A DNA stretch of 59,507 nucleotides from Burkholderiales bacterium (GTDB lineage: Bacteria; Pseudomonadota; Gammaproteobacteria; Burkholderiales; SG8-41). Below the pieces are notes generated by a model. The model did not search any database. It saw only the letters and a program-made list of their open reading frames with translations, and had not been told where the DNA came from. Below are positions 46,615-59,070 of the stretch, piece after piece (within the stretch, counting starts at the first letter, position 1; each line of letters opens with the position of its first letter). The position numbers and the translations under genes are program-made. The DNA is taken from NCBI GenBank assembly GCA_046597455.1, contig JBKJKJ010000400.1, forward strand, positions 1-59,507. The letters run 5' to 3'.

Positions 46615-46949
46615 TACGCGGCGCCGAAGCCGAAACCATGGCGGCGGCTTTTCTGGAACGCGCGGGACTCAGGGTAATCGAACGCAACTATCGCTGCCGC
46701 CTGGGCGAAATCGATCTCGTGGCGCGGGACGGCGCGACCACGGTGTTCGTGGAAGTGAGGCAGCGCGCCTCGTCCGCATTCGGCGGTGCGGCGGCAAGCA
46801 TTACCGCGGCCAAACGCCAGCGGCTGATCAAGGCCGCGCGGCATTACCTTTCGAGGCTGCGCACGTTACCGCAATGCCGCTTCGATGCGCTGCTCATCGA
46901 AGGTGACCCGCCGCGCATCGATTGGGTCAAAAACGCCTTCGGGGAGTAG
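46611..46949 (+). CDS. yraN: YraN-family (UPF0102) endonuclease-like protein
   Basis: 112 aa, GAEAETMAAAFLERAGLRVIERNYRCRLGEIDLVARDGATTVFVEVRQR. Confidence 0.85.
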   Translation: MIRGAEAETMAAAFLERAGLRVIERNYRCRLGEIDLVARDGATTVFVEVRQRASSAFGGAAASITAAKRQRLIKAARHYLSRLRTLPQCRFDALLIEGDPPRIDWVKNAFGE

Positions 46950-46963
46950 CTCCTGTACAATAG

Positions 46964-47560
<597 letters not shown>

Positions 47561-48130
47561 ATGCGCCTATTCATCACCGTGCTCGCGATTGCTCTCCTTC
47601 CTGCCCTGAACGGCTGCGCCTTGGTCGCCCTGGGCGGCGCCGCCGCAGCGGGCGGCTATCTCGTCGGTGAGGATCGCCGCGCAGGTCCGGTGATGGCCGA
47701 GGATCAGTCGATCGAGATCAAAGCGAGCAATCGTCTGAATGACAAGTATCCCAATGCGCACATCAGCTCGACGTCGTACAACAGGCACGTGCTGCTGGCG
47801 GGCGAAGTTCCCGACGCCGCGGCGAAAGCGGAAGCCGAGCAGATCGTGCGCGGCATAGAAGGGGTCCGCGGCACGTTCAACGAGCTGCAGATCGGCCCCG
47901 TGAGCGCGCTTTCCGCGCGCGCCAACGATTCGTACATCACGTCCAAAGTGAAAGCACGCTTTGTCGACAGCCGACGATTCAATGTGGTGCACGTCAAAGT
48001 CGTGACCGACGCGAGCACGGTATATCTCATGGGTATCGTCAAAAAGCAGGAAGCGAACGACGCCACCGAACTCGCCCGCACGACGAGCGGCGTGACCCGG
48101 GTCGTGCGCCTTTTCGAATACCAGGACTGA
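47561..48130 (+). CDS. BON-domain outer-membrane lipoprotein (DolP/YraP-like)
   Basis: 189 aa with a lipobox (LPALNGC) and two BON-like repeats (…VLLAGEVPDAAAKAEAEQIVRGIEGV… and …VYLMGIVKKQEANDATELARTTSGV…). Confidence 0.8.
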   Translation: MRLFITVLAIALLPALNGCALVALGGAAAAGGYLVGEDRRAGPVMAEDQSIEIKASNRLNDKYPNAHISSTSYNRHVLLAGEVPDAAAKAEAEQIVRGIEGVRGTFNELQIGPVSALSARANDSYITSKVKARFVDSRRFNVVHVKVVTDASTVYLMGIVKKQEANDATELARTTSGVTRVVRLFEYQD

Positions 48131-48154
48131 CGCACCCCGCGTGAGGCGTACCGC

Positions 48155-48664
48155 GTGAGCCCCGACGCGAAAGCCGACGTTTACGCCACGCCTGCTTTCG
48201 AAAGCAAGATCTGTCCGCTCGCCGATCTCGCCGGACGCGCCGCCACACTACCTCGACCGGTGGTATTCACGAACGGCGTCTTCGACATACTCCACCGCGG
48301 CCATGTCACCTACCTCGCGCAGGCACGCGGGCTGGGGGCGAGCCTCATCGTCGCGCTTAACACCGACGCATCGGTGCGGCGCCTGGGCAAAGGTGGCGAT
48401 CGCCCACTCAATACGCAGGCCGACCGCGCAGCCGTGATCGCCGCGCTGGAGCCGGTGAGCCTCGTCACCTGGTTCGACGAGGACACGCCGCTCGAGCTCA
48501 TCCTCGGACTCAAGCCGGATATTCTCGTCAAAGGCGGCGACTGGCGTGCGCAGGACATCGTCGGCGCCTCGGCGGTGCAAGGCTGGGGCGGAACCGTGCA
48601 TTCGATCCCGTTCGAGCATCAGCGCTCGACCACTGCGCTGCTCGAAAAAATCCGCCGGCCGTAA
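48155..48664 (+). CDS. D-glycero-beta-D-manno-heptose 1-phosphate adenylyltransferase (RfaE domain II type)
   Basis: 169 aa with a cytidylyltransferase signature, VFTNGVFDILHRGHVTYL...ALNTDASVRRLGKGGDRPLN...DILVKGGDW. Confidence 0.85.
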   Translation: MSPDAKADVYATPAFESKICPLADLAGRAATLPRPVVFTNGVFDILHRGHVTYLAQARGLGASLIVALNTDASVRRLGKGGDRPLNTQADRAAVIAALEPVSLVTWFDEDTPLELILGLKPDILVKGGDWRAQDIVGASAVQGWGGTVHSIPFEHQRSTTALLEKIRRP

Positions 48665-48736
48665 AGCCGGCGCAGTCGTTTCAAACTCGAGGATTTTCGC
48701 GCGTAAGGGCGGGATCCGGTTTTGCGGCGCCCTCGC

Positions 48737-49177
48737 CTAGATCGGGCACGCGCCGGCCTTGATCTGCGTCGATGGAAAACCGCGCTGCAATTCCGCGATC
48801 CGCGCCACGGTCGCCGCGTCCGGCTCGCGCACGTAGTACGCGTAGCGTTTGGCGCCGGCGCTTTCCCCCAGCGTGCGCTGCATCGGCGGCCGCGGCAACT
48901 CCAGCCGGCCCAGTGCCACTTCGGCTTTACCCGCTTCGATCACCCCAAACGGACCCCATTCGAGGCATGCCGACTTCGCCGCCTGCCCGCCCGGACCGCG
49001 TGTGGCCGCGTTCATGAGCTTGATCCGGGCCGGATTGATCTGAAGGTCCTCGATTCGCGACGCAGCCGCGGCGCGGTTCCCGAGGCTGAGGCGCGCGTAT
49101 GCAAAAAAAAGCACGTTCGCGAGCAGAAGCACGAAAAACACCAGCCTCGCGTTGATTTTGCGCCGTTCAGACATCAC
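48737..49177 (-). CDS. Bitopic membrane protein with a SPOR-like C-terminal domain
   Basis: 146 aa with an N-terminal TM segment (LVFFVLLLANVLFFAYA) and a C-terminal CLEWGPFGVIEAGKAEVALGRL... resembling SPOR. A SPOR gene downstream of birA-coaX is usual in betaproteobacteria. Confidence 0.5.
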   Translation of the reverse strand: MMSERRKINARLVFFVLLLANVLFFAYARLSLGNRAAAASRIEDLQINPARIKLMNAATRGPGGQAAKSACLEWGPFGVIEAGKAEVALGRLELPRPPMQRTLGESAGAKRYAYYVREPDAATVARIAELQRGFPSTQIKAGACPI

Positions 49178-49898
49178 TCGTTCCTATGCATATCAGTCCT
49201 TCGAGCACCAGATTATCCACGACTTGAACACGTAAGGTCAGCAGGGGCTCGAGCATGGCAGCGCTCCCCCCGGACAGCAGCGTCGCCGCATCGCCTTCGC
49301 CGGTCTGCGTCATGTAGCGGATCATGCGGTCGATCGCCCCGGCCAGCGCGTTGGCTGCGCCGCTGGAAATGGCATCGCCCGTATTGTCCGGAAAGAACCT
49401 GAAGCTGCCGTCCTGCGATTTCAGCAGCGCGGTGTTGCGGGCGAGCGACTGGCGCATCAGGTCGTAGCCCGGCACGATAAAGCCGCCGAGAAAAATGCCT
49501 TCAGCGGAAAGCGCATCGACCGTCATCGTGGTGCCCGCATTCACCACGGCGCACGGGCCGTCGTGAAGCGCGCGCGCGCCGATGAGCGCCGCCCATCGAT
49601 CGGGACCGAGCTGATCCGGCCGGGCATAGCTGCTGCGCACCCCGCACTGCTCGATGCGGCTGACGATCCACAACGGTGGGGGCTCGAACACGCCGAGCGC
49701 TTCGGCGATCCGCGCTGCGGCCTCATCACCCGCGACGTTCGCGACCACGATGCGATCCGGCGGGGTCAGTCGCCAAACGGCACCGGCCAGCTCGTCGGCC
49801 TGCGCCGTTTCGACCGCGCCACGCTCCAGCCATCGGCCGCTTTCGTGCAGGCCCCATTTGATGCGGCTGTTTCCGGAATCGATTGCCAGGATTTTCAT
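49167..49898 (-). CDS. coaX: Type III pantothenate kinase
   Basis: The internal ATG forms an ATGA overlap with the birA stop. The product is MKILAIDSGNSRIKWGL...VVNAGTTMTVD.... Confidence 0.93.
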   Translation of the reverse strand: MKILAIDSGNSRIKWGLHESGRWLERGAVETAQADELAGAVWRLTPPDRIVVANVAGDEAAARIAEALGVFEPPPLWIVSRIEQCGVRSSYARPDQLGPDRWAALIGARALHDGPCAVVNAGTTMTVDALSAEGIFLGGFIVPGYDLMRQSLARNTALLKSQDGSFRFFPDNTGDAISSGAANALAGAIDRMIRYMTQTGEGDAATLLSGGSAAMLEPLLTLRVQVVDNLVLEGLICIGTSDV

Positions 49899-50914
49899 GC
49901 GCCGCTCTTGGCGCGGGCGCCCGGTCCGCGCAACGCCGGCGCGGTCCGTCGCAGACTGATTTCGCCGCTGTGCAGCCGGCGCACCGCCGTGCCCGACTGA
50001 AAAAGCAGCGCGCCGTCGTCCGCCACGCCGAGCGCGATACCCTCTTCGGTGCGTCCGGTGGGCAGTTTCACCGCGACACGCTGACCCTGATGCGCGTGAT
50101 GGCGCTCCCACTCTTGCCGCAGCGGCGCGAAGCCGCGCTCTGCAAAATCATCGAGAACACGCGTGAGCTCGACCAGGACGGTCGCCAGGACCGCGCTTCG
50201 GTCGAGCGCGTGCCCGCATGCGCTTTGCAGATCGATGCAGGGCTGGTCGATGCGGCTGCGCATCGCCGGCGACAGGCGCACATTGAGACCCAGTCCGATG
50301 ACGACTGCGCTCGGACCCAGCGCGTCGCCGTGCATCTCGATCAGCATTCCGGCGAGCTTTTGTGCGCGCCACAGCACGTCGTTGGGCCACTTGAGCTGCG
50401 CCCCTTCGACACCCAGCGCGTTCAGTGCGCGGATGACCGCGACACCGACGGAGAGACTCAGCCCGCCCATCGCACCGGCGCCCTGGGCGTAGCGCCAGAG
50501 GATCGAGAACGTCAGCGAGCGCCCGACACCGGCCTGCCATACCCGTCCCATTCGTCCGCGCCCGCTGCGCTGCCATTCCGCGGCCATGACGCTGCCACTG
50601 GGCGCCCCGCTTCCGGCTCGCTCCATCAACAGGGTGTTGGTCGAGTCCGCGATGTCCACGACTTCGATCGACAGGCTCGATGCGTGCGTCCCTGCGCAGC
50701 GCGCGACTTCCCGGGCATCGAGCAGCGACACCGGCTCGGAGAGCTTGTAGCCGCGCCCGCGAACCTTGTAGACCTCGAGCTCCGCGCTTTCGAGCGCGCG
50801 CACCGCATTCCACACCGTGCCGCGAGATACGCCGAGCGTGCGCGCAAGCCGGGCGCCGGAGTGGAATTCGCCGTTTGCGAGTAGCCGCAGGAGCCTGAAG
50901 GAGAGGTCCGTCAT
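49895..50914 (-). CDS. birA: Bifunctional biotin--[acetyl-CoA-carboxylase] ligase / biotin operon repressor
   Basis: The internal ATG gives MTDLSFRLLRLLANGEFHSGARLARTLGVSRGTVWNAVRAL (HTH), followed by ...QRSGRGRMGRVW.... Confidence 0.93.
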   Translation of the reverse strand: MTDLSFRLLRLLANGEFHSGARLARTLGVSRGTVWNAVRALESAELEVYKVRGRGYKLSEPVSLLDAREVARCAGTHASSLSIEVVDIADSTNTLLMERAGSGAPSGSVMAAEWQRSGRGRMGRVWQAGVGRSLTFSILWRYAQGAGAMGGLSLSVGVAVIRALNALGVEGAQLKWPNDVLWRAQKLAGMLIEMHGDALGPSAVVIGLGLNVRLSPAMRSRIDQPCIDLQSACGHALDRSAVLATVLVELTRVLDDFAERGFAPLRQEWERHHAHQGQRVAVKLPTGRTEEGIALGVADDGALLFQSGTAVRRLHSGEISLRRTAPALRGPGARAKSGA

Positions 50915-50962
50915 GGGGCGTATAGAATATCCGATACCCGATCCCACAGCGGAGGACGATTG

Positions 50963-51940
50963 ATGAGCACGCGTTCACTTGTAGTCGCCTCACTCGGTGC
51001 GGCGTTGCTGTTGCCGCTGCTCACCCACGCGGCTGAACAGTCCCGCTACCCGTCGCGCCCCATCCGGGTGATCGTGCCTTACACCCCTGGTGGAATTACC
51101 GACGTGACGACACGCATGGTGACGCAGGAGCTCGTCAAGAGCTTCAGCCAGAACGTGATCGTCGACAACCGGCCCGGCGCGAACAGCATCATCGGTGTGG
51201 ACCTGGTGGCCAAGTCGAGCCCCGACGGCTACACGCTCGCTTCGGTGATCGCAGCCCACGCCGCCAACCAGACGCTCTATCCGAAGCTGCCTTACGACTC
51301 GATCAAGAGCTTCGCGCCGGTGTCGCTGCTCGCGACTGCGCCGCTGATTCTTTGCGTGACGAATTCCCTGCCGGTCAAAACGGTCAAGGATCTCGTGGAC
51401 CTCGCAAAAGCCAAACCCGGGACACTTACGTTTGCTTCGAGCGGCATCGGCGCCGCGGCCCATCTCACCACCGAGCTCCTGATGCTGACCACCGGCACGA
51501 AATTGATACACGTGCCCTACAAAGGCACCGCGCCGGCGCTGCTGGATCTCTCGGGCGGCCAGGTGACGATGATGATGGACACGCCCGGATCGATGCTTCC
51601 GCACTCGCGGGCCGGGAGGATCCGTGCGCTCGCGATGGCGTCGGAAAAGCGGGTCGCCGTCGCGCCCGAACTTCCGACGTTCATCGAATCCGGCGTTCAG
51701 GTGGTCGGCGGTACCTGGGTCGGCATCCTGGCGCCCGCGGGCACGCCGCGCGATGTTGTCAACACACTGAGCCGCGAAATGCAGCAGGTCCTCAAACGTC
51801 AGGACCTGAAAGACCGCTTTCTTCAGCTCGGCATCGATCCGGTCGGCAACACACCGGAGGAGTTCACCCACTTTCTGAAGGATGAAGTTGCGAAGTGGGG
51901 GAAAGTCATCCGTGCAGCCAACGTGAAAGTGGAATCGTAA
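50963..51940 (+). CDS. Bug-family (TctC-like) tripartite tricarboxylate transporter substrate-binding protein
   Basis: ATG has GGAGGA 6 nt upstream. After a signal peptide the product reads YPSRPIRVIVPYTPGGITDVTTRMVTQEL...VDNRPGANSIIG. Confidence 0.9.
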   Translation: MSTRSLVVASLGAALLLPLLTHAAEQSRYPSRPIRVIVPYTPGGITDVTTRMVTQELVKSFSQNVIVDNRPGANSIIGVDLVAKSSPDGYTLASVIAAHAANQTLYPKLPYDSIKSFAPVSLLATAPLILCVTNSLPVKTVKDLVDLAKAKPGTLTFASSGIGAAAHLTTELLMLTTGTKLIHVPYKGTAPALLDLSGGQVTMMMDTPGSMLPHSRAGRIRALAMASEKRVAVAPELPTFIESGVQVVGGTWVGILAPAGTPRDVVNTLSREMQQVLKRQDLKDRFLQLGIDPVGNTPEEFTHFLKDEVAKWGKVIRAANVKVES

Positions 51941-51951
51941 CGTTGAGGAAA

Positions 51952-52662
51952 GTGAAGACGCACATCGTCGCCATGGGCGGCATGGCACTGCCGCCCGAGC
52001 TCGACAATCTTCTGCTCATCCAGTATTTCCTTCGGCAGACCGGCCGCAAAAAACCGAAAGTCGCCTTCATCGGCACCGCGCACGGCGATTCCGAAATCGG
52101 ACGGCTGCGCTTTTACGCCGGTTTCAGCCAGTTCGACTGCAAGCCTACGCATTTGCCCCTGTTCGCGCGCACGCCGCGTGACCTCGAGTCCTTCGTGCTC
52201 GAGCAGGACGCGATTTACGTCGGCGGCGGCAACACCCGCAGCCTGCTCGCCGTATGGCGCGACTGGGGTCTGGACCGGCATCTGCGAGCCGCGTGGGAGC
52301 GCGGCGTCGTGCTCGGCGGCGCGAGCGCAGGCTCGATCTGCTGGTTCGAGCACGGCGTCACGGACTCGATCGCGGGCCCCCTGACCGCGTTGTCGTGCCT
52401 GGGTTTTCTGGAGGGCAGCAATTGTCCGCACTACGACAGCGAACTTAAGCGCCGGCCGACGTTCCAAAAGCTGGTTGCCCGCGGCACGATTCCCCACGGC
52501 TACTCGGCCGACGACGGCGCAGCGCTGCATTTTGTCGACGGCACATTTGCGCGCGCCGTGTCGTCCATCCGCGGAAAAAAGGCCTATCGCGTGACGCGAG
52601 CAGGCAGAAATGCCGCGGAACGTATATTGCCTACTCAGTTCCTGGGTGGCGCCTCCGTATAA
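51952..52662 (+). CDS. Peptidase S51 (dipeptidase E-like) family protein
   Basis: Track ORF 51895..52662 overlaps the Bug gene, so the start is placed at GTG 51952 (ATG 51973 is also possible). The product contains ...IYVGGGNTRSLLAVW...VLGGASAGSICWFEHGVTDS.... Confidence 0.7.
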   Translation: MKTHIVAMGGMALPPELDNLLLIQYFLRQTGRKKPKVAFIGTAHGDSEIGRLRFYAGFSQFDCKPTHLPLFARTPRDLESFVLEQDAIYVGGGNTRSLLAVWRDWGLDRHLRAAWERGVVLGGASAGSICWFEHGVTDSIAGPLTALSCLGFLEGSNCPHYDSELKRRPTFQKLVARGTIPHGYSADDGAALHFVDGTFARAVSSIRGKKAYRVTRAGRNAAERILPTQFLGGASV

Positions 52663-52755
52663 TTCAGGTTCATCAGTAATTCATGTCATAGCCGCACTCC
52701 TTCGCGGGCCGCCGACATTGATGGCATTGATTCATGCATCGGTAAGGAATTTATT

Positions 52756-55700
52756 TTGTCTGCAAAAACCACGTCATTGATCAGGAACGAGGCACTTTCC
52801 GCATTTGATAGCGCCCAGGCTGCGGTTCGTGCCTTCGTGAGCGGCACGATGCTGGACGGTGCGGCCGCGAGCGCTTTCGGTGCCGATGTCACCGGCGCCG
52901 CGGTCGCTGCCGCAGTGCACGATTTCGATCGAGACGGATGGCCTGCACTGCGCGTGGCGGACGCGGCGACGCTGCACGGCGCGCGCGCTGCATACGATCG
53001 CCTGAGCGACACGATTTATCTCTCCCAGGATTTCATTGCCGCTTCCCGCGGCGCACCCTCCGCCGTCGTGAACGTGCTGGTAGAAGAAATCGGGCACGCC
53101 CTCGATGCGCGGGTCAATGGCACCGACGCGGCGGGCGACGAAGGCGCCATTTTCGCCCAGTTCGTGACCGGGCACGTGCCGGACGCCCAGGAGCTCGCTG
53201 CTTTGAAGACCGTAAACGATCACGGGACGATCACTGTCGGCGGCGCAACGCTCGACGTGGAATTCGCAGCCCCGATCGTCGGCTCGATCACGCTCGACGG
53301 CAGCCTCGCCGACTGGACTACAGCTGACGAGATCGACAAGACCCTCAGTGTGTCGGGTTACGACATCTTCGCCAAAGGCACCGGCGGCTCGTATGTCTTC
53401 GCGCTGAGAGCGCCCGTCGCCATCGGCGCCAATACCACCGCCTGGCTCAACACCGACCAGAACACCGCAACCGGCTACAAGATCTGGGGTTTCGCCGGCG
53501 GCGCCGAATACAACATCAACTTCGACGCCACCGGCACGCCGCATCTCTATACCGGAGATGCAGGCCAGACGCTGGTGTCGGGCGCTACCGTCTCGTTCGC
53601 CTACTCGGCCGACCACAAGACCGTCGAGTTCTCGATTCCCACCAGCGCGATCGGTTCGCCGAAAGCGATCAACACCCTGTGGGACATCAACAACAATACG
53701 TTCCTGCCGACCGATTACTCGCTCACGCAGTTCCAGGTGGTCGATACCGGCACCGGACCTACACCCGCACCGACGCCGACACCTACGCCGACACCGACAC
53801 CGACACCTACGCCTACGCCCACCCCGACGCCGACGCCTACCCCGACACCCGTCGCACGGATCACGCTCGACGGCAACCTCGCCGACTGGACCGCAGCTGA
53901 CGAGATCGACAAGACCCTCAGTGTTTCGGGTTACGACATCTTCGCCAAAGGCACGGGCGACTCGTATGTCTTCGCGCTGAAAGCGCCTGTCGCCATCGGC
54001 GCCAATACCACCGCCTGGCTCAACACCGACCAGAACACCGCAACCGGTTTCAAGATCTGGGGTTTTGCCGGCGGCGCCGAATACAACATCAATTTCGACG
54101 CCACGGGCACGCCGCATCTCTATACCGGAGATGCAGGCCAGACGCTGGTGTCGGGCGCTACCGTCTCGTTCGCCTACTCGGCCGACCACAAGATCGTCGA
54201 GTTCTCGATTCCCACCAGCGCCATCGGTTCGCCGAAAGCGATCAACACCCTGTGGGACATCAACAACAATACGTTCCTGCCGACCGATTACTCGCTCACG
54301 CAGTTCCAGGTGGCCAATACCGCCCCTTCGCCTGCACCCACTCCGACACCGACACCCACGCCGACTCCGACACCCACGCCGACACCCACGCCAACGCCGC
54401 CATCCGCCGATCTCGTGAAGAAAATCGGCATCGTCTACTCGGAGACGTCCGCGAACCAGTATTTCGACAAGATGGCTTACTCCCAACTCTTCATGACCGC
54501 GCAAAGCCAGGCGACCATGGCGGGTGTGCGTTACGACATTCTGAACGAGGCGGACCTCACCAACCTCGCCAAGCTGTCGAATTACAGTGCGCTGGTGTTC
54601 CCCGGTTTTGCCCACGTCGCTGCGGGCCAGGTCGCGGCGATCGAAAGCACGCTCAAGGCCGCGGCCCAGCAGTATCACGTCGGCCTCATCGCCGCGGGCG
54701 AATTCATGGTTTACAACGCTGCGGGGACCGCCCTCCCCGGCGATCCATACGCACGCATGAAGACGCTCCTCGACCTGCAACTCGTGAACGGCGGCTTCCC
54801 CGCCAACCTGACGGTCAATGCCGCGGACGTCGCTCACCCGATGATGGCGGATTACGGCTCGAAGGAGCTCATCCACAGCTATACCGGCGCCGGCTGGCTC
54901 GCCTTCGCGCCGGTGACGACGGCAGGCACGAGCGTGCTCGCGACCCAGACCGTCGGCGGGCAGACGTATGATGCTGTGGTCGCGACCAATACCGGGGGGC
55001 GCAACGTCCATTTCTCGACCGACGAAGTGATGGGCGACAACAACCTGCTGTGGCAGGCGATCGACTATGCCGTCAATGGCGGCGGCGTGTCAGCCGGTCT
55101 TCAGCTCTCCCGCAGCACCAGCATCGTCGCGTCGCGCACCGACATGGACCAGGCGCAGGAGATGCTGGACGTGAAGCCGGAAAACGGCGGTCCCGGCGTT
55201 TACGACAAGCTGCTCCCCATACTTCAGCAATGGAAGAGCGCATATAACTTCGTGGGTTCGTACTACATCGACATCGGGGCCAAGGCCCCGGATCAGCAGA
55301 CCGACTGGGTGAAATCAGGCGCGTACTACAAGCAGCTCCTCGCGATGGGAAACGAGCTCGGATCGCATTCGATCACGCATCCGGATAACACCAACACGCT
55401 CACTGCGGCAAAGATACAAAGCGAGTTCCAGGGCTCCCGCCAGATCATCGAACAGCAGATGAGCCAGATCCTCGGCCAGCCGTTCAAGGTGGATGGCGCC
55501 GCGGTGCCGGGCGCGCCGGAATCGCTCGCGACCGCACTGTCGATCATCCAGTACTACGACTATCTCTCTGGTGGCTTCTCCGGCGTCGGCGCCGGATTTC
55601 CAGGCGCCTTCGGCTATCTCAACCCGGCAATGGCAGCTCTGGACAAGGTCTACCTCGCACCCAACGTCGAGTTCGATTTCTCCCTGGTCGAATTCAAGAA

Positions 55701-57189
55701 GATGACGGCGACGCAGGCCGCCGCAGAGTGGCAACGCGAATGGAGCGCCCTTACCGCGCACGCCGATGTGCCGGTGCTGATCTGGCCGTGGCACGACTAC
55801 GGTCCGACAGCGTGGTCGACCAGCCCGCCGGCAGCATCCCCTTACAACACCGCGATGTTCACCGACTTCATTTCGCACGCGTACAAGGCGGGCGCTGAAT
55901 TTGTCACGCTTTCGGATCTTGCCGATCGCATTTCGGCTTTTCACAAATCGACGCTCGCAACGACGGTGTCCGGCAACACCATCACCGCGACCGTGAGCTC
56001 ACCCGACGCGGGCAAGTTTGCGCTCGACCTGGACCACCTGGGCACGCAGAAAATCGCCAATGTCACGGGATGGTATGCGTACGACAGCGACAGCGTCTTC
56101 CTCCCGCGCAACGGCGGCTCGTACACCATACACCTCGGTGCCACGGCCGATGACGTCACGCACATTACCAGCCTGCCGATGCGCGCCGAGCTGCTGTCGG
56201 TGAATGGCAATGGGACGGATCTGAGCTTCTCGCTCATCGGCGAAGGAAACGTCGTCATCGACCTCGTGAATCCGGCCGGCCGCACGCCGGTGGTTACAGG
56301 CGCCACGATAACGAGTCTTGCGGGCGATCTTCTCACTCTCGGTGTCGGGGCTTTCGGGCAGCACGATGTCGCGGTGGTGCTCGACCACGCGCCGACGATC
56401 ACCTCGAACGGCGGCGGCGCCGCGGCGGCGATTTCGATCGCCGAGAACGCGACTGCGGTCACCAAGGTCGTCGCGAGCGACCTGGATGCCGGTCAGACCC
56501 TGACCTACTCGATCGCGGGCGGCGCCGACGCGGCGAAGTTCGCCATCAACGCGCAATCGGGATTGCTCGCTTTCCTGACTGCGCCGGACTTCGAAAATCC
56601 GCTCGACCAGGGCGTCAACAACGTCTACGACGTGACCGTCGCTGCGCGCGACAACCTGGGTGTCGCGGCCACGCAGGCGCTCGCCGTTACGATCCTCAAC
56701 GTCCCGGGAGTCACACGCGTCGGGAACGACGCGGCGGACACGCTGACCGGCACCAACGAGGAAGACTCACTCTCCGGCCTCGGCGGAAACGACATCCTTT
56801 ACGGTCTGGCGGGAAACGATATCCTGATCGGCGGCTCAGGCAACGACACGCTGGTCGGCGGCCCGGGCAACGACACCCTGACCGGCGGCGCAGGCTCGGA
56901 CCGCTTCGTTTACACCTCGATCAATGACGGGCTCGACACGATCATCGATTTCACCACCGGAAGCGCCGGCGACAAGCTCGACATCAAGGATGTACTCATC
57001 GGTTACAGCGTTGCGTCGTCGCGGATCAGCGACTTCGTACACCTCACGGGCGGCAGCAGCACGGTGGTCTCGGTCAATGCCGACGGTATCGGCTCCGACT
57101 TCGTCGCGCTGGCCACCTTGCAGGGTGTGTCCAATTCAGCGAGTCTGCTCAACGATTTGATGAGTCAGGGCAATCTCATCGTCGTGTAA
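52756..57189 (+). CDS. Large multidomain RTX protein, predicted type I secretion substrate: N-terminal EEIGH module, 2x beta-rich module with (TP)n linkers, NodB/CE4-like deacetylase core, cadherin-like repeat, GGxGxD repeats, T1SS C-terminal domain
   Basis: 1477-aa ORF with a TTG start and AAGGA 7 nt upstream. The motifs read directly are VLVEEIGHALDARVNGTDAAGDEGAIF; duplicated ITLDG(S/N)LADWT...TQFQV; IVASRTDMD and GSHSITHP; APTITSNGGG...YSIAGGADAAKFAINAQSGLL...VYDVTVAARD; GGNDILYGLAGNDILIGGSGNDTLVGGPGNDTLTGGAGSDRFVY; and DKLDIKDVL...VVSVNADG...FVALATLQGV. Confidence 0.9.
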   Translation: MSAKTTSLIRNEALSAFDSAQAAVRAFVSGTMLDGAAASAFGADVTGAAVAAAVHDFDRDGWPALRVADAATLHGARAAYDRLSDTIYLSQDFIAASRGAPSAVVNVLVEEIGHALDARVNGTDAAGDEGAIFAQFVTGHVPDAQELAALKTVNDHGTITVGGATLDVEFAAPIVGSITLDGSLADWTTADEIDKTLSVSGYDIFAKGTGGSYVFALRAPVAIGANTTAWLNTDQNTATGYKIWGFAGGAEYNINFDATGTPHLYTGDAGQTLVSGATVSFAYSADHKTVEFSIPTSAIGSPKAINTLWDINNNTFLPTDYSLTQFQVVDTGTGPTPAPTPTPTPTPTPTPTPTPTPTPTPTPTPVARITLDGNLADWTAADEIDKTLSVSGYDIFAKGTGDSYVFALKAPVAIGANTTAWLNTDQNTATGFKIWGFAGGAEYNINFDATGTPHLYTGDAGQTLVSGATVSFAYSADHKIVEFSIPTSAIGSPKAINTLWDINNNTFLPTDYSLTQFQVANTAPSPAPTPTPTPTPTPTPTPTPTPTPPSADLVKKIGIVYSETSANQYFDKMAYSQLFMTAQSQATMAGVRYDILNEADLTNLAKLSNYSALVFPGFAHVAAGQVAAIESTLKAAAQQYHVGLIAAGEFMVYNAAGTALPGDPYARMKTLLDLQLVNGGFPANLTVNAADVAHPMMADYGSKELIHSYTGAGWLAFAPVTTAGTSVLATQTVGGQTYDAVVATNTGGRNVHFSTDEVMGDNNLLWQAIDYAVNGGGVSAGLQLSRSTSIVASRTDMDQAQEMLDVKPENGGPGVYDKLLPILQQWKSAYNFVGSYYIDIGAKAPDQQTDWVKSGAYYKQLLAMGNELGSHSITHPDNTNTLTAAKIQSEFQGSRQIIEQQMSQILGQPFKVDGAAVPGAPESLATALSIIQYYDYLSGGFSGVGAGFPGAFGYLNPAMAALDKVYLAPNVEFDFSLVEFKKMTATQAAAEWQREWSALTAHADVPVLIWPWHDYGPTAWSTSPPAASPYNTAMFTDFISHAYKAGAEFVTLSDLADRISAFHKSTLATTVSGNTITATVSSPDAGKFALDLDHLGTQKIANVTGWYAYDSDSVFLPRNGGSYTIHLGATADDVTHITSLPMRAELLSVNGNGTDLSFSLIGEGNVVIDLVNPAGRTPVVTGATITSLAGDLLTLGVGAFGQHDVAVVLDHAPTITSNGGGAAAAISIAENATAVTKVVASDLDAGQTLTYSIAGGADAAKFAINAQSGLLAFLTAPDFENPLDQGVNNVYDVTVAARDNLGVAATQALAVTILNVPGVTRVGNDAADTLTGTNEEDSLSGLGGNDILYGLAGNDILIGGSGNDTLVGGPGNDTLTGGAGSDRFVYTSINDGLDTIIDFTTGSAGDKLDIKDVLIGYSVASSRISDFVHLTGGSSTVVSVNADGIGSDFVALATLQGVSNSASLLNDLMSQGNLIVV
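53287..54405 (+). repeat. 573-bp tandem duplication inside the RTX gene (two 459-bp modules, each followed by an ACN-CCN hexanucleotide (Thr-Pro) microsatellite)
   Basis: Module 1 is 53287..53745 with linker 53746..53859. Module 2 is 53860..54318 with linker 54319..54405. I count about 15 mismatches between the modules by eye, almost all in the first half. Confidence 0.9.
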
Positions 57190-57258: not shown

Positions 57259-57984
57259 CTAGATGCGCCGAACCGAGCCTGAGAGCGGCGTTTCAGGACC
57301 GTGAAGTTGCGGCGAGCTTCCGCGTCCGAGCGACTGCCGGTCGATCACGATCAGCTTGCGCTTGTGGCGGCGCACGACGCCCCGCCTGATCATGTCCTTG
57401 ATCACCCGGCTCACCATTTCGCGGGACGCACCGACCATCGATGCGATCTGTTCCGAGCCCGGCTGCACCTGCCACTCTCCGTTTGCTTCGCGGCTCGACT
57501 CCAGAAGAACGCGCGTGACGCGCTCGTAGACGTCGGTCAGCGCGAGGCTCGCCATCTTCCGATGCGCTTCGTCGAGACGCTCGAGGACGGTGCGCAACAT
57601 CGCCGTGGCCGCGCCGGCATTGCTTTTCATGCACTCGAGCACGGCCCGGCTCGGAATGTAGAGGACTTCGCATGGCCCTTCGGACTCGAAGTTCGACGAG
57701 ACCGGTCGGCCATCGATGATGCCCGCTTCGCCAAAGAACTCGTTCGGTCCGATCGAAGCCGCGATGAGCGCGTGACCGTCGCCATCCTCGAAAAGGACCC
57801 TGACGACACCGGAAACGACTACGTAGAGCGCGTCCGCCAGCTCGCCCGCGTGGAGAATGCGCGTGCGGGCCGGATAACTTCGATGCTGCGTCGCCGATAA
57901 CACCTCGCCGAACTGCGCATCGGTAAGCGAGGCGAAAAACGGGAGGCTTTTCAGTACGCTGGGGTTTCCTGCAAGACGCAACAT
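57259..57984 (-). CDS. Crp/Fnr-family transcriptional regulator (cNMP-binding domain + HTH)
   Basis: 241 aa, ...LPFFASLTDAQFGEVL...FFGEAGIIDG... with a C-terminal HTH (SEQIASMVGASREMVSRVIKDM). It lacks the N-terminal Cys cluster of true Fnr. Confidence 0.88.
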   Translation of the reverse strand: MLRLAGNPSVLKSLPFFASLTDAQFGEVLSATQHRSYPARTRILHAGELADALYVVVSGVVRVLFEDGDGHALIAASIGPNEFFGEAGIIDGRPVSSNFESEGPCEVLYIPSRAVLECMKSNAGAATAMLRTVLERLDEAHRKMASLALTDVYERVTRVLLESSREANGEWQVQPGSEQIASMVGASREMVSRVIKDMIRRGVVRRHKRKLIVIDRQSLGRGSSPQLHGPETPLSGSVRRI

Positions 57985-58089
57985 ACTGAACGCTCATCTT
58001 ATTGATAGAGTGAGCGAATTTAGACTACCGAGGCGTGTAAGGTTGTGATAAACGGCACCTTTTTTGTAAAAGATTGTTACCCGTTTTGG

Positions 58090-59070
58090 TTATTCAGCGC
58101 GCATGCCAGTCACCGCGACGACCTTCGCCCACTTTTCGACTTCCTTCTTCTGGAAAGCGGTGAACTCATCGGTTCCCAGCGGTGACGGCTCGGCGCCCTG
58201 TGCGTGGAAGCGCGAAACGGTCTCCGGCTGGCGCAGGATACGGTTCACTTCGGTACTCAGCCTGTCGACTACCGCCCGAGGCGTGCCGGCCGGTGCGAAC
58301 AGCCCCAGCCAGTTGAGCATCTGGTAGCCGGGCAGACCGGCTTCAGCGATCGTAGGCAGATCGGGGAGCACCGCCGAGCGCTGTCCCGAGGTGACCGCCA
58401 GCCCTCGCAGGCGTCCGGATTTGGTATGGGGAGAGACTGAAGCCGCTGTCCCGAAAGTAACGGGCACTTCACCCGCAACGAGCGCCACCATGGCCGGGCC
58501 GCCGCCTTTGTACGGCACGTGTACGAGCTTCACGCGCCCGAGATGCTCGAACAGCACTGCCGCGAGATGGGTCGAAGTCCCCGCACCCGCCGACGCGTAG
58601 TTGATCTGTCCGGGCTTCGCGCGAGCCAGGGCGACGAGATCCTTCACGCTGCGCGCCGGCAGCGACGGGTGCACCGCGAGGATACTCGGCGCGTCCGATA
58701 GCCGCGCGACGGCCTGGAAATCGCGCAGAACGTGATAAGGCAGCTTCGGATAAAGCGCCTGGTTCACCGCGTGTGTGCCGACGCTGCCGACCGTGAGCGT
58801 GTGGCCGTCAGGCGCCGACCGCGCCGTCACTTCGGTCCCGACGATACCCCCCGCCCCGGCGCGATTCTCAACGATGACCTGCTGCCCGAGCGCAGCGCCG
58901 AGCGGACCGGCCACCACCCGGGCGGTGAAATCGACGAATCCACCGGGCGAGAATGCTGCGATGAGGCGCACGGGCCGCGCCGGATACACGTCCACGCCGG
59001 CAGCATGCCCCTCGATTGCGACTGCGGCACTGGCCAGCAGGATCCATCGGGTCGGGTCGGATATGTTCAT
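58090..59070 (-). CDS. Bug-family (TctC-like) substrate-binding protein, second copy
   Basis: 326 aa. After a signal peptide the product reads YPARPVRLIAAFSPGGFVDFTARVVAGPL...VENRAGAGGIVG. Confidence 0.9.
   Translation of the reverse strand: MNISDPTRWILLASAAVAIEGHAAGVDVYPARPVRLIAAFSPGGFVDFTARVVAGPLGAALGQQVIVENRAGAGGIVGTEVTARSAPDGHTLTVGSVGTHAVNQALYPKLPYHVLRDFQAVARLSDAPSILAVHPSLPARSVKDLVALARAKPGQINYASAGAGTSTHLAAVLFEHLGRVKLVHVPYKGGGPAMVALVAGEVPVTFGTAASVSPHTKSGRLRGLAVTSGQRSAVLPDLPTIAEAGLPGYQMLNWLGLFAPAGTPRAVVDRLSTEVNRILRQPETVSRFHAQGAEPSPLGTDEFTAFQKKEVEKWAKVVAVTGMRAE

What the first reader, a model, noticed from the sequence alone, without database searches (positions are those of the whole stretch)
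52756..57189. 1477-aa RTX mosaic that would export a NodB/CE4-like deacetylase core with lectin-like and cadherin-like modules
Seen: a single uninterrupted ORF with a plausible TTG start and SD. In order it contains (i) a 170-aa N-terminal module; (ii) two near-identical 153-aa modules beginning ITLDG(S/N)LADW, each followed by a (Thr-Pro)n linker; (iii) about 240 aa unassigned (KKIGIVYSETSANQYF...); (iv) a region with IVASRTDMD (D796/D798), GSHSITHP (H871/H875) and WPWHDYG; (v) about 150 aa of beta-rich sequence; (vi) a cadherin-like repeat (56383..56703); (vii) five or six GGxGxD nonapeptides (56722..56913); and (viii) a DKLDIKDVL...VSVNADG...LATLQGV C-terminus. Established: D-x-D plus H-(S/T)-x-x-H is the metal-binding signature of the NodB-homology (carbohydrate esterase 4) fold. 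GGxGxD repeats plus that C-terminal block mark type I secretion substrates (the VCA0849-type target domain). Modules starting I-x-x-DG-x-L-x-x-W are typical of CBM9/DOMON-like carbohydrate-binding folds. Inference: this is a secreted, Ca2+-dependent, polysaccharide-binding and de-N/O-acetylating enzyme or adhesin acting on the cell's own exopolysaccharide or on an external glycan. I do not know of a characterised T1SS-exported CE4 enzyme with this architecture. The CE4 assignment rests on short motifs only.
Basis: partly seen in the sequence, partly recalled or inferred. Interest (0 to 1): 0.7.

Follow-up and report, generated by a model that had tools for sequence, protein, structure and literature searches.

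The report
Secreted RTX deacetylase linked to Pel biofilm sugar
This gene encodes a large calcium-binding protein that is probably exported straight out of the cell and carries an enzyme for removing acetyl groups from a sticky biofilm sugar polymer; relatives of it sit inside Pel-type biofilm gene clusters that have lost their usual version of that enzyme.

Summary
Profile and structure tests confirm RTX repeats, a type I secretion (T1SS) C-terminal domain, a borderline cadherin domain and a NodB/CE4-fold domain whose D-x-D, H-S-x-x-H and H-D-Y residues are invariant in 65 relatives. The CBM9/DOMON assignment failed.

New findings:
- The "unassigned" 240 aa is a ThuA/GATase1-like alpha/beta domain. 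With the CE and beta-sandwich domains it reproduces the three-domain plan of the alpha-1,4-GalNAc deacetylases Agd3 (CE18) and PelA (CE21).
- There is no detectable sequence membership in either family.
- The core occurs in 338 species genomes.
- Within 10 kb of the gene, 55 of 79 fetched loci have GH114, about 48 have PelF and 50 have PelG.
- Only 3 of the 79 loci carry a PelA-type deacetylase, and two of those have lost their catalytic residues.
- The extra N-terminal module is a widespread zincin-like head domain with no Pfam model.

Best reading: a T1SS-exported, extracellular deacetylase for a Pel-like polymer. In this window the gene is an orphan, with no pel or T1SS genes in 59.5 kb. 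This is a new variant of a known kind and is uncharacterised experimentally.

The parts
52744..52748 (+). Shine-Dalgarno-like AAGGA, 7 nt upstream of the TTG start
   Evidence: Read directly from the sequence. The intergenic region 52663-52755 is AT-rich, GC 0.46.
52756..57189 (+). Complete CDS, 1477 aa: RTX-type mosaic deacetylase
   Evidence: GC3 0.80. GC is 0.630 against 0.639 for the window.
52756..53271 (+). N-terminal zincin-like head module (aa 1-172) with an E110-E111-x-G113-H114-x-x-D117 helix and a G127-D-E-G130 loop
   Evidence: The AF2 model has pLDDT 93.6. There are 2766 representative clusters at E<=1e-3, found on RTX mosaics with unrelated cargoes. Invariant residues were identified, and two members carry canonical HEIGHAID. 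Weak per-member Pfam hits are almost all zincin families. No PDB match was found.
53272..53745 (+). ITLDG beta-sandwich module 1 (aa 173-330)
   Evidence: All-beta in the model. A single copy forms the N-terminus of most family members. No Pfam or PDB match.
53746..53859 (+). (Thr-Pro)n linker 1
   Evidence: pLDDT is low in the equivalent linker.
53860..54318 (+). ITLDG beta-sandwich module 2 (aa 369-521), a recent tandem duplicate of module 1
   Evidence: 145/153 aa identical. 94% nt identity with a 573-nt period.
54319..54411 (+). (Thr-Pro)n linker 2
   Evidence: pLDDT 49-63.
54412..55110 (+). ThuA / class-I glutamine-amidotransferase-like alpha/beta/alpha domain (aa 553-785). Same fold class as Agd3 CBM87 and the PelA mixed alpha/beta domain.
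55111..55935 (+). NodB-fold (beta/alpha)7 carbohydrate-esterase domain (aa 786-1060). Proposed roles: R794 helper, D796 base, D798/H871/H875 metal triad, H1013 acid.
   Evidence: PF01522 28.2 bits for the domain alone. Foldseek hits: 3qbu 1.3e-7, 6h8l 3e-6, 2w3z and 2c1i. The residues are invariant. The roles are inferred by analogy with the PelA and CE4 motifs.
55936..56370 (+). Beta-sandwich domain (aa 1061-1205)
   Evidence: DSSP shows all-beta structure at pLDDT >90. A weak CBM_6 hit scores E=0.004. Its position matches the beta-rich C-terminal domains of Agd3 and PelA.
56371..56715 (+). Cadherin-like domain (aa 1206-1320)
   Evidence: PF00028 E=2.2e-6, 28.4 bits against a cut-off of 28.8. 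PF00028 is precomputed on most homologues.
56716..56934 (+). RTX Ca2+-binding nonapeptide block (five canonical GGxGxD plus one degenerate)
   Evidence: PF00353 E=1.3e-15. Motif positions. PDB matches to CyaA, lipase, serralysin and AlgE R-modules.
56935..57189 (+). Type I secretion C-terminal target domain (VCA0849 type) and stop codon
   Evidence: TIGR03661 E=3.5e-11, 44.1 bits against a cut-off of 17.6, aa 1394-1475.

Best explanation
The gene encodes a type I secretion substrate whose cargo is a metal-dependent, NodB-fold polysaccharide de-N-acetylase. The cargo is built on the same three-domain plan as the alpha-1,4-GalNAc-polymer deacetylases Agd3 and PelA: a ThuA-like alpha/beta module, a (beta/alpha)7 esterase and a beta-sandwich.

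Proposed mechanism:
1. The protein has no Sec signal. Its C-terminal VCA0849-type signal is recognised by an ABC/MFP/TolC-type exporter, and it leaves the cell unfolded, C-terminus first.
2. Extracellular Ca2+ folds the RTX beta-roll, and then the cadherin-like and catalytic domains.
3. Outside the cell, the alpha/beta module, the two ITLDG beta-sandwiches on flexible Thr-Pro linkers and the cadherin-like domain hold a Pel-like, GalNAc-rich exopolysaccharide.
4. The active site removes N-acetyl groups. D798/H871/H875 bind the metal, D796 is the base (assisted by R794) and H1013 is the acid. The polymer becomes cationic and adhesive.

In most alphaproteobacterial relatives this secreted enzyme appears to stand in for the periplasmic PelA deacetylase. 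The N-terminal zincin-like head module is a generic add-on of RTX proteins and its role is unknown.

Shown here: domain identities, residue conservation and genomic linkage. Inferred: export, activity, substrate and site of action.
For: - Secretion signature: PF00353 and TIGR03661 match. Family members start directly with the ITLDG module and have no signal peptide. A complete ABC-MFP-OEP set lies immediately upstream on the same strand in Sphingobium. ABC and MFP genes lie within 10 kb in 7 of 79 loci.
- Fold: the model has pLDDT 92.6. Foldseek hits CE4 enzymes and ThuA-like/GH42 alpha/beta domains. The same structures, 3QBU and 4JQS, are the reported top neighbours of the Agd3 domains, and ThuA-like proteins are the top neighbours of the PelA alpha/beta domain.
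- Active site: R794-x-D796-x-D798, H871-S-x-x-H875 and H1013-D-Y are invariant. The MT1-MT2 spacing of 73 aa compares with 70 in PelA (H526-x-D528-x-D530, H600, H604).
- Substrate: within 10 kb of the gene, GH114 (endo-alpha-1,4-polygalactosaminidase family) occurs in 55 of 79 loci, PelG in 50 and robust PelF in about 48. This holds across Sphingomonadales, Hyphomicrobiales, Caulobacterales, Acetobacterales/Rhodospirillales and a betaproteobacterium whose locus has canonical pelA-pelB. Some loci also carry GlmS, GlmM and 4-epimerase genes.
- Replacement logic: a CE21 HMM finds a PelA-type deacetylase in only 3 of the 79 loci. Two of those have lost their catalytic residues (HxDGD to QMAGD or LISSD; SH[ST]YSHP to SATATRP or TRPGKHP). 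An Azospirillum orthologue, with no RTX gene in the 25-kb stretch fetched, keeps them.
Against: - The window has no pel, GH114 or T1SS gene in 59.5 kb. The neighbours are housekeeping genes (dcw cluster, secA, birA, TctC, peptidase S51, Crp/Fnr).
- The closest relatives (L005-L009) show no linkage either, although their contigs are short.
- The linkage statistics are dominated by Sphingomonadaceae, so the loci are not phylogenetically independent.
- There is no sequence-level relation to PelA, Agd3 or any GalNAc deacetylase. A profile search of the PDB finds only CE4 members, on the H-S-x-x-H motif. The hhalign score against a PelA profile survives block-shuffling of that profile, so it is motif-only.
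- Neither Agd3 nor PelA appears in the Foldseek top 50.
- In Sterolibacterium an intact PelA sits next to the RTX gene, so the RTX enzyme is not always a replacement.
- I could not inspect model coordinates, so the clustering of the proposed catalytic residues in 3D is unverified.
- No biochemical data exist for any family member.
Confidence: 0.58

Rival explanations
1. It is a secreted NodB-fold deacetylase acting on a different glycan, such as PNAG, chitin or chito-oligosaccharides, acetylxylan, or the peptidoglycan or EPS of other organisms. The Pel linkage seen in alphaproteobacteria would then not apply to this orphan betaproteobacterial copy.
For: The only sequence-detectable relatives with structures are classic CE4 enzymes: peptidoglycan, xylan and chitin deacetylases (6hpa, 7ax7, PdaC, ArCE4A). 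There are no pel genes in the window or in the closest relatives' contigs. The added N-terminal module and the duplicated ITLDG module set this sub-clade apart.
Against: The catalytic core is 46-73% identical over all 658 aa to the Pel-linked members, with every invariant residue retained, which argues for the same substrate. A betaproteobacterial member sits directly upstream of pelA-pelB. The three-domain plan is so far known only from alpha-1,4-GalNAc deacetylases.
Confidence: 0.2
2. It is mainly a Ca2+-dependent matrix adhesin or scaffold. The esterase-like core would serve as a polysaccharide-binding module rather than as an enzyme, as in LapA/Rap-type RTX adhesins.
For: The protein has a cadherin-like domain, duplicated beta-sandwich modules on Thr-Pro linkers and RTX repeats. 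Cadherin-like CHDL domains of T1SS-secreted Rhizobium Rap proteins bind EPS (PMC9298526). Catalytically dead CE modules do exist in these loci.
Against: All putative metal-binding and acid/base residues are invariant across 65 sequences spanning proteobacteria and cyanobacteria. That is the signature of a working active site. It contrasts with the dead CE21 proteins, in which exactly these residues decay.
Confidence: 0.1
3. It is simply a divergent member of an already defined family, either PelA/CE21 or Agd3/CE18, so nothing here is new beyond the fusion partners.
For: It has the same domain order. Its x-D-x-D MT1 and about 70-aa MT1-MT2 spacing resemble PelA. It shares the top structural neighbours of Agd3. 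It shares the genomic company of GH114, PelF and PelG. Bacterial Agd3 homologues next to GH114 and Pel outer-membrane genes were already noted in 2020.
Against: An HMMER profile search of the PDB at E<=10 returns neither 9CGY nor 6NWZ. A CE21 HMM does not hit any RTX-family protein at E<=1e-3. The hhalign signal is motif-only, as the shuffle control shows. Agd3's adjacent DD and its 64-aa insertion are absent. It has no GH166 domain and no signal peptide.
Confidence: 0.1

Closest known systems
PelA deacetylase region of Pseudomonas (CE21; PDB 9CGY; PMC12022489)
   Same: Both have a mixed ThuA-like alpha/beta domain, a (beta/alpha)7 metal-dependent esterase and a beta-rich domain, in that order. 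Both have an x-D-x-D MT1 and H-x-x-x-H MT2 about 70 aa apart, and neither has an Arg in MT3. Both are encoded beside pelF, pelG and a GH114/GH166-type hydrolase.
   Different: There is no detectable sequence similarity beyond the H-S-x-x-H-P motif. Arg794 takes the place of PelA His526. The window protein has no fused hydrolase domain and no signal peptide. PelA is periplasmic and works on PelB before export. This protein carries RTX, T1SS, cadherin and ITLDG modules and should act outside the cell.
Agd3 of Aspergillus fumigatus (CE18 + CBM87; PDB 6NWZ; PMC7229062)
   Same: Both are secreted enzymes that would act extracellularly on an alpha-1,4-GalNAc polymer. Both have the GATase1/ThuA-like module + CE + beta-sandwich plan. 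They share nearest PDB neighbours (4JQS, 3QBU). Both are clustered with a GH114 gene.
   Different: Agd3 has adjacent D377-D378 and a 64-aa insertion that puts more than 120 aa between CM1 and CM2, compared with 73 aa here. There is no sequence hit. Agd3 uses the eukaryotic secretory pathway. It has no RTX, cadherin or ITLDG modules.
PelA-DA of Bacillus cereus (CE26 + CBM114; PMC13254593)
   Same: [quoted passage not shown] It is encoded separately from the hydrolase, and an acidic residue follows the MT5 His (H1013-D1014 here).
   Different: PelA-DA is anchored by a single transmembrane helix in a Gram-positive envelope. It belongs to a different CE family.
AlgE1-7 mannuronan C5-epimerases of Azotobacter vinelandii
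   Same: They are RTX-module enzymes, exported without a signal peptide, that remodel the cell's own exopolysaccharide outside the cell in a Ca2+-dependent way, alongside a periplasmic counterpart (own knowledge). Their R-modules match this protein's RTX block (2ml1, 2ml3, 2agm).
   Different: Their catalytic module is a beta-helix epimerase acting on alginate, not a NodB-fold deacetylase. They have no cadherin or ITLDG modules.
Rhizobium leguminosarum PrsDE substrates (PlyA/PlyB glycanases, Rap proteins; PMC9298526)
   Same: They are T1SS-secreted, Ca2+-binding proteins with cadherin-like (CHDL) domains that bind or cleave the producer's own EPS in the biofilm matrix.
   Different: They are glycanases or lectins, not esterases. 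They act on an acidic EPS rather than a GalNAc polymer, and their catalytic folds are unrelated.

Membership tests
RTX / type I secretion substrates | Tandem Gly/Asp-rich nonapeptides (GGxGxDxUx) | tested here: met
   PF00353 E=1.3e-15. Five canonical copies at aa 1341-1382.
RTX / type I secretion substrates | Uncleaved C-terminal secretion domain | tested here: met
   TIGR03661 T1SS_VCA0849, 44.1 bits against a cut-off of 17.6, aa 1394-1475.
RTX / type I secretion substrates | No N-terminal Sec/Tat signal peptide | tested here: met
   The N-terminus is polar and modelled as helices of a folded domain. No dedicated signal-peptide predictor was available.
RTX / type I secretion substrates | Cognate ABC transporter, MFP and outer-membrane protein encoded nearby | tested here: not met
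   None are present in the 59.5-kb window. They are present next to homologues in Sphingobium and in 7 of 79 loci. T1SS genes are often unlinked, so this does not exclude export.
RTX / type I secretion substrates | Demonstrated T1SS-dependent export | not testable with these tools
   This needs a secretome comparison with and without the transporter.
CE4 / NodB homology (PF01522) | Profile match above the curated threshold | tested here: met
   24.4 bits for the whole protein and 28.2 bits for the domain alone, against a cut-off of 23.1. Only profile positions 18-94 of 124 are covered. The match is marginal.
CE4 / NodB homology (PF01522) | Distorted (beta/alpha)7-8 NodB fold | tested here: met
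   The model has pLDDT 92.6. Foldseek probability is 1.0 to 3qbu, 6h8l, 2w3z, 2c1i, 4ny2 and 3s6o, with TMt 0.58-0.66.
CE4 / NodB homology (PF01522) | MT1 T-F-D-D (adjacent catalytic base and metal Asp) | tested here: not met
   The sequence is R794-T-D796-M-D798, a D-x-D variant that is invariant in the family. PelA shows the same variant.
CE4 / NodB homology (PF01522) | MT2 H-(S/T)-x-x-H metal ligands | tested here: met
   H871-S-I-T-H875 is invariant and aligns to MT2 of solved CE4 enzymes.
CE4 / NodB homology (PF01522) | MT3 R-x-P-Y arginine and MT4 D-x-x-D-W aspartate | tested here: inconclusive
   The invariant G914-A-A-V-P918-G919 keeps the Pro but has no Arg. Invariant D974 and W992 are candidates for MT4. 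The assignment needs a 3D superposition, which I could not do.
CE4 / NodB homology (PF01522) | MT5 catalytic His | tested here: inconclusive
   Invariant W-P-W-H1013-D-Y lies at the end of a beta-strand in the expected order. The role is assigned by position only.
CE21 (PelA deacetylase) | Sequence similarity to PelA | tested here: not met
   The profile search of the PDB does not return 9CGY at E<=10. A CE21 HMM gives no hit on any RTX-family ORF at E<=1e-3.
CE21 (PelA deacetylase) | Domain order: mixed alpha/beta, then CE, then beta-rich | tested here: met
   compared with the description of PtPelA.
CE21 (PelA deacetylase) | H-x-D-x-D with the His activating the base | tested here: not met
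   The first position is an invariant Arg (R794), not His (one search compared).
CE21 (PelA deacetylase) | Fused N-terminal GH166 hydrolase and periplasmic location | tested here: not met
   No GH114/GH166 match occurs in the protein, there is no signal peptide, and T1SS features are present instead.
CE18 / CBM87 (Agd3) | Sequence similarity to Agd3 | tested here: not met
   6NWZ/6NWC do not appear in the PDB profile search at E<=10.
CE18 / CBM87 (Agd3) | CM1 D-D and more than 120 aa between CM1 and CM2 (64-aa beta2 insertion) | tested here: not met
   The motif is D-x-D and the spacing is 73 aa (searches compared).
CE18 / CBM87 (Agd3) | GATase1/ThuA-like module + CE + beta-sandwich | tested here: met
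   4jqs and 3qbu are among the top Foldseek hits. These are the neighbours reported for Agd3.
   No such Pfam hit occurs in the window modules or in 20 diverse members at E<=1. There is no PDB sequence hit. The Foldseek top 50 are VH/nanobody domains at E>=1.7e-3, with no CBM9.
Cadherin (PF00028) | Profile match above the curated threshold | tested here: inconclusive
   28.4 bits against a cut-off of 28.8, E=2.2e-6. Most homologues carry a precomputed PF00028 hit.

The most novel reading that the evidence does not exclude
The core defines a previously unclassified carbohydrate-esterase family. This family matures Pel-type (alpha-1,4-GalNAc) exopolysaccharide outside Gram-negative cells after delivery by type I secretion. 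It would replace the periplasmic PelA deacetylase, which is absent or has decayed to a pseudoenzyme in the same loci. If so, deacetylation of a synthase-dependent polysaccharide need not happen in the periplasm before export. The added zincin-like head module might process or release the enzyme.
Probability: 0.4. Interest if true: 0.8.

Novelty: new variant of a known kind. Interest (0 to 1): 0.62.

Why it matters
In Pseudomonas, Pel must be deacetylated by periplasmic PelA before it can be exported and before biofilm can form. That step is being pursued as an anti-biofilm target.

This work finds a widespread enzyme family, present in 338 species genomes, that has the same three-domain plan but is delivered by type I secretion. 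It sits in Pel-type loci where the PelA deacetylase is missing or catalytically dead. This suggests a second route in which the polymer is matured after export.

The consequences are practical:
- The question "where and when is Pel deacetylated?" becomes directly testable in tractable leaf and soil bacteria such as Sphingomonas and Methylobacterium.
- The family is a candidate new CAZy esterase family.
- Hundreds of database names such as "M10 metallopeptidase C-terminal domain", "serralysin" and "cadherin" are shown to be misleading.
- A large zincin-like head module of RTX proteins, with no Pfam model, is flagged for study.

Tried and rejected
1. CBM9/DOMON identity of the ITLDG modules was rejected. 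Pfam searches on the window modules and on 20 members, a PDB profile search and Foldseek all failed to support it.

2. CE21 membership was rejected. An initial hhalign result (53% probability, 540 collinear columns starting exactly at PelA's hydrolase | alpha/beta junction) looked persuasive. After block-shuffling the PelA profile the score stayed at 44-46 bits, so the signal comes only from the H-S-x-x-H-P block.

3. 'The RTX enzyme always replaces a missing PelA deacetylase' was rejected as a universal rule. Sterolibacterium has an intact full-length PelA next to the RTX gene.

4. PelF linkage in the cyanobacterial loci and in L053 was discarded. Those tblastn hits are only 24-29% identical, so they are generic GT4 enzymes.

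5. 'The N-terminal domain is rare' was overturned. The word-indexed search gave 9 hits, but the exhaustive HMMER search gave 2766 clusters.

6. Attempts to extend beyond the window edge failed. Exact-protein look-ups with the RTX protein and with the Crp neighbour found nothing on record.

7. Recent horizontal acquisition has no compositional support. The gene's GC is 0.630 against 0.639 for the window.

8. Promoter and terminator scans around the gene found no more sites than expected by chance.

9. A word-indexed search with the ITLDG profile returned only short fragments and no new architectures.

Full report
**1. Observation**

The ORF at 52756..57189 (+) is uninterrupted and encodes 1477 aa from a TTG start. 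An AAGGA Shine-Dalgarno sequence lies 7 nt upstream of the start, inside an AT-rich intergenic gap. Its third-codon-position GC is 0.80, typical of the window's genes, and its overall GC is 0.630 against 0.639 for the window, so it does not look recently acquired.

- The two ITLDG modules are 145/153 aa identical, and 94% identical at the DNA level with a 573-nt period.
- Each module is followed by a (Thr/Ala-Pro)n linker.
- IVASRTDMD, GSHSITHP and WPWHDYG start at aa 790, 869 and 1010.
- There are five canonical GGxGxD nonapeptides at aa 1341-1382.

**2. Domain identities**

Pfam on the whole protein gives three matches:
- HemolysinCabind, E=1.3e-15.
- Cadherin, E=2.2e-6, at 28.4 bits just under the 28.8 cut-off.
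- Polysacc_deac_1 (PF01522), 24.4 bits against a cut-off of 23.1. The domain scanned alone scores 28.2 bits.

NCBIfam gives the T1SS C-terminal target domain TIGR03661 at 44.1 bits against a cut-off of 17.6.

An AlphaFold model of aa 369-1205, built on 65 homologues, is very confident (pLDDT 92.6, pTM 0.87). Foldseek against the PDB splits the core into two recognisable folds:
- A ThuA / class-I glutamine-amidotransferase-like alpha/beta domain (GH42 'trimerisation' domains, E=1e-8; ThuA-like protein 4jqs, E=6.7e-7).
- A NodB/CE4 (beta/alpha)7 domain (HP0310 3qbu E=1.3e-7; PdaC 6h8l; Vibrio COD; S. mutans CE4 2w3z; SpPgdA 2c1i; TM-score to target 0.58-0.66).

Residues 1061-1205 are an all-beta sandwich.

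In the 65-sequence alignment (47-69% identity), R794, D796, D798, H871, S872, H875, G914, P918, G919, D974, W992, H1013, D1014 and Y1015 are invariant.

The CBM9/DOMON assignment for the ITLDG modules does not survive:
- No Pfam family matches the window modules or any of 20 diverse members.
- There is no PDB sequence match.
- A second confident model (pLDDT 93.6) gives only weak VH/nanobody-type beta-sandwich hits, with E >= 1.7e-3.

**3. What the core resembles**

The literature describes three alpha-1,4-GalNAc-polymer de-N-acetylases that share a three-domain plan.
- B. cereus PelA-DA (CE26) is described as reminiscent of Agd3.

The window protein's core has the same domain order and the same nearest PDB neighbours (4jqs, 3qbu). 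Its MT1 is PelA-like (R794-x-D796-x-D798), and its MT1-MT2 spacing is PelA-like too: 73 aa, against 70 in PelA and more than 120 in Agd3.

Membership by sequence fails, however:
- A core-only profile search of the PDB at E<=10 returns only classic CE4 enzymes, on the H-S-x-x-H motif. It returns neither 9CGY nor 6NWZ.
- A CE21 HMM built from seven PelA-type sequences hits no RTX-family ORF at E<=1e-3.
- hhalign against a four-sequence PelA profile gave 53% probability over 540 apparently collinear columns. Block-shuffling the PelA profile left the score unchanged at 44-46 bits. The signal therefore comes from the short MT2 block alone.
- Agd3 and PelA are not in the Foldseek top 50. That list is crowded with redundant GH42 chains, and I could not see below rank 50.

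Conclusion: the core works like Agd3 and PelA in fold and architecture, but it is not demonstrably a member of CE18 or CE21. It is a marginal, atypical member of the NodB/CE4 superfamily.

**4. Distribution and architecture**

The core finds more than 368 protein clusters at 46-73% identity over its full 658 aa. Relatives occur in 338 of 185,579 species-representative genomes. These are mainly Sphingomonadaceae and Methylobacterium, with other Alphaproteobacteria, some Betaproteobacteria and Nostocales cyanobacteria.

The canonical protein is about 1100 aa and has this order:
1. One ITLDG module at the very N-terminus, with no signal peptide.
2. A linker.
3. The core.
4. A cadherin-like domain.
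5. RTX repeats.

Of 104 near-full-length members, 76 carry at least three RTX nonapeptides.

The names given by the sources are generic or misleading: 'M10 family metallopeptidase C-terminal domain-containing protein', 'serralysin', 'cadherin' and 'polysaccharide deacetylase family protein'.

The window protein belongs to a sub-clade that has gained the 170-aa N-terminal module. Several of its members also carry a second ITLDG module. The sub-clade includes a Betaproteobacteria MAG, Ca. Odyssella and a Rhodocyclaceae MAG. I found no paper describing a T1SS/RTX-borne deacetylase.

**5. Genomic company**

Individual loci:
- In Sphingobium sufflavum the homologue lies between a complete T1SS (ABC, AprE-type MFP, OEP) and, on the same strand, PelG, a stand-alone GH114 hydrolase, four ORFs without confident Pfam matches (two with weak, sub-threshold TPR hits) and PelF (DUF3492+GT4).
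- In Methylobacterium it sits among genes for a nucleotidyl-transferase, a 4-epimerase, GlmS, GlmM, two GH114 proteins, Wza, a TPR protein and PelG.
- In Aureimonas it sits between PelF-PelG-Wza and GH114.

Across 79 fetched loci, counting genes within 10 kb:

| Gene | Loci of 79 |
|---|---|
| GH114 | 55 |
| PelG | 50 |
| PelF (robust hits) | about 48 |
| T1SS ABC + MFP | 7 |

The linkage spans Sphingomonadales, Hyphomicrobiales, Caulobacterales and Acetobacterales/Rhodospirillales. It also includes the betaproteobacterium Sterolibacterium. There the RTX gene directly precedes a canonical full-length pelA (E=2e-178 to 9CGY) and pelB (PelB C-terminal beta-barrel, E=3e-61). GH114 is the endo-alpha-1,4-polygalactosaminidase family, and Pel is a partially deacetylated alpha-1,4-GalNAc polymer.

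**6. Replacement signal**

A CE21 HMM finds a PelA-type deacetylase in only 3 of the 79 RTX-bearing loci:
- One is the intact Sterolibacterium PelA.
- The other two are hydrolase-less, PelA-C-terminal-like proteins: Aureimonas, 749 aa, and MAG L050, 637 aa.

In both of these the catalytic residues have decayed:

| Motif | Canonical | Aureimonas | L050 |
|---|---|---|---|
| MT1 | H-x-D-G-D | QMAGD | LISSD |
| MT2 | SH[ST]YSHP | SATATRP | TRPGKHP |
| MT5 | YYH | GFH (His kept) | NFR (His lost) |

Their orthologue on an Azospirillum plasmid keeps all the motifs, and no RTX gene is visible in the 25 kb fetched there. The numbers are small. Still, the pattern is what one expects if the secreted RTX enzyme has taken over deacetylation in these loci.

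**7. The window itself**

Here the gene is an orphan. The 59.5-kb window is core chromosome:
- ffh, secA and the dcw cluster lie further upstream.
- lppC-like, SIS, BON and birA genes lie nearer the ORF.
- TctC/Bug receptors flank the ORF, peptidase S51 lies just upstream and a convergent Crp/Fnr regulator lies downstream.

No pel, GH114 or T1SS gene is detectable. The closest relatives' contigs show none either, but they are short. Exact-protein look-ups could not extend the contig beyond the window. The substrate assignment for this particular protein therefore rests on homology: 46-73% identity across the whole catalytic core, with all invariant residues retained.

**8. N-terminal module (side finding)**

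The exhaustive HMMER search shows that the 170-aa head is common: 2766 representative clusters at E<=1e-3 and 1508 at E<=1e-10. It usually lies near the N-terminus of RTX mosaics with unrelated cargoes, including lipases, an EEP-family domain, Calx-beta, cadherin-like domains, a C-type lectin and DUF11.

- Its invariant residues are E111, G113, H114, D117, G127-D-E-G130, F133 and D155.
- Two members have a canonical HEIGHAID where the others have EEIGHxxD.
- Weak per-member Pfam hits are almost all zincin families: SprT-like, M90, Tox-MPTase3, DUF6782, M48, Zn_peptidase_2 and DUF2268.

It looks like a minimal zincin-like module in which the first His is usually Glu. It has no Pfam model and no solved relative. 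Its function is unknown.

**9. Verdict**

It is now sharper: the protein is a T1SS/RTX-delivered, NodB-fold, Agd3/PelA-style three-domain deacetylase whose family is genetically wedded to Pel-type exopolysaccharide loci.

Domain identities, residue conservation and linkage are shown here. Export, catalysis, substrate and extracellular site of action are inferred.

The closest mechanistic precedents are:
- PelA, Agd3 and PelA-DA for the chemistry.
- The AlgE epimerases and the Rhizobium PlyA/B-Rap proteins for RTX/T1SS-delivered remodelling of the producer's own exopolysaccharide.

I rate it a new variant of a known kind, with interest 0.62.

Noticed in passing
window 52756-53271 (aa 1-172): The N-terminal module is a widespread head domain of RTX mosaics with no Pfam model (2766 representative clusters). 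Its (H/E)-E-x-G-H-x-x-D helix and G-D-E-G loop look like a minimal zincin in which the first His is usually Glu. It has no solved structural relative.
   Followed up: partly
L004:486-2735 (Aureimonas endophytica) and L050:18954-20864 (alphaproteobacterial MAG): These are stand-alone proteins homologous to PelA's C-terminal three domains. They have lost the CE21 catalytic residues (QMAGD or LISSD for HxDGD; SATATRP or TRPGKHP for SH[ST]YSHP). They appear to be pseudo-deacetylases, and both sit in loci that also encode the RTX deacetylase.
   Followed up: partly
L085:989-4134 (Azospirillum thermophilum plasmid NZ_CP029356.1): This pel locus has a split PelA: a separate 293-aa GH114 'endo alpha-1,4 polygalactosaminidase' followed by a 755-aa 'hypothetical protein'. 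The latter is a PelA-C-terminal-like deacetylase with intact HIDGD and SHTWTHP motifs.
   Followed up: partly
L086:3343-6087 and L087:2972-5860 (Burkholderia thailandensis and Paraburkholderia graminis plasmids): Full-length PelA (CE21 HMM about 1000 bits), at the head of canonical pel operons, is annotated 'sugar ABC transporter' in RefSeq. This is probably an annotation error.
   Followed up: no
L060:4286-15510 (Sterolibacterium MAG): The RTX deacetylase gene lies immediately upstream of an intact canonical pelA and pelB. This organism would therefore have both a periplasmic and a secreted Pel-type deacetylase.
   Followed up: partly
Proteins P0130, P0131, P0133: These are short ORFs of 280-300 aa on long contigs (26-68 kb). 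They score about twice the single-module bit score against the ITLDG profile, so they seem to consist of two ITLDG modules only. They could be stand-alone proteins or frameshift fragments at the Thr-Pro repeat.
   Followed up: no
window 53277-54149: The near-identical 573-nt tandem duplication (module + Thr-Pro linker), together with the simple ACN-CCN repeats, is the kind of region that mis-assembles. Two-module relatives exist (L007-L009, L022, P0068, P0116, P0118), so it is probably real, but read-level support was not checked.
   Followed up: no
window 7110-40000 and 45500-52662, 57259-59070: The rest of the window is core chromosome. It contains ffh, secA and the dcw cluster (ftsI, murE, murF, mraY, murD, ftsW, murC). 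Nearer the ORF are LppC-like, SIS, BON, cytidylyltransferase and birA genes. Two TctC/Bug receptors, peptidase S51 and a convergent Crp/Fnr regulator flank the RTX gene. This fits a Burkholderiales-type betaproteobacterium.
   Followed up: partly
window 2066-3772 (-): A 568-aa ORF with coding-like GC3 has no Pfam match at E<=1e-5.
   Followed up: no
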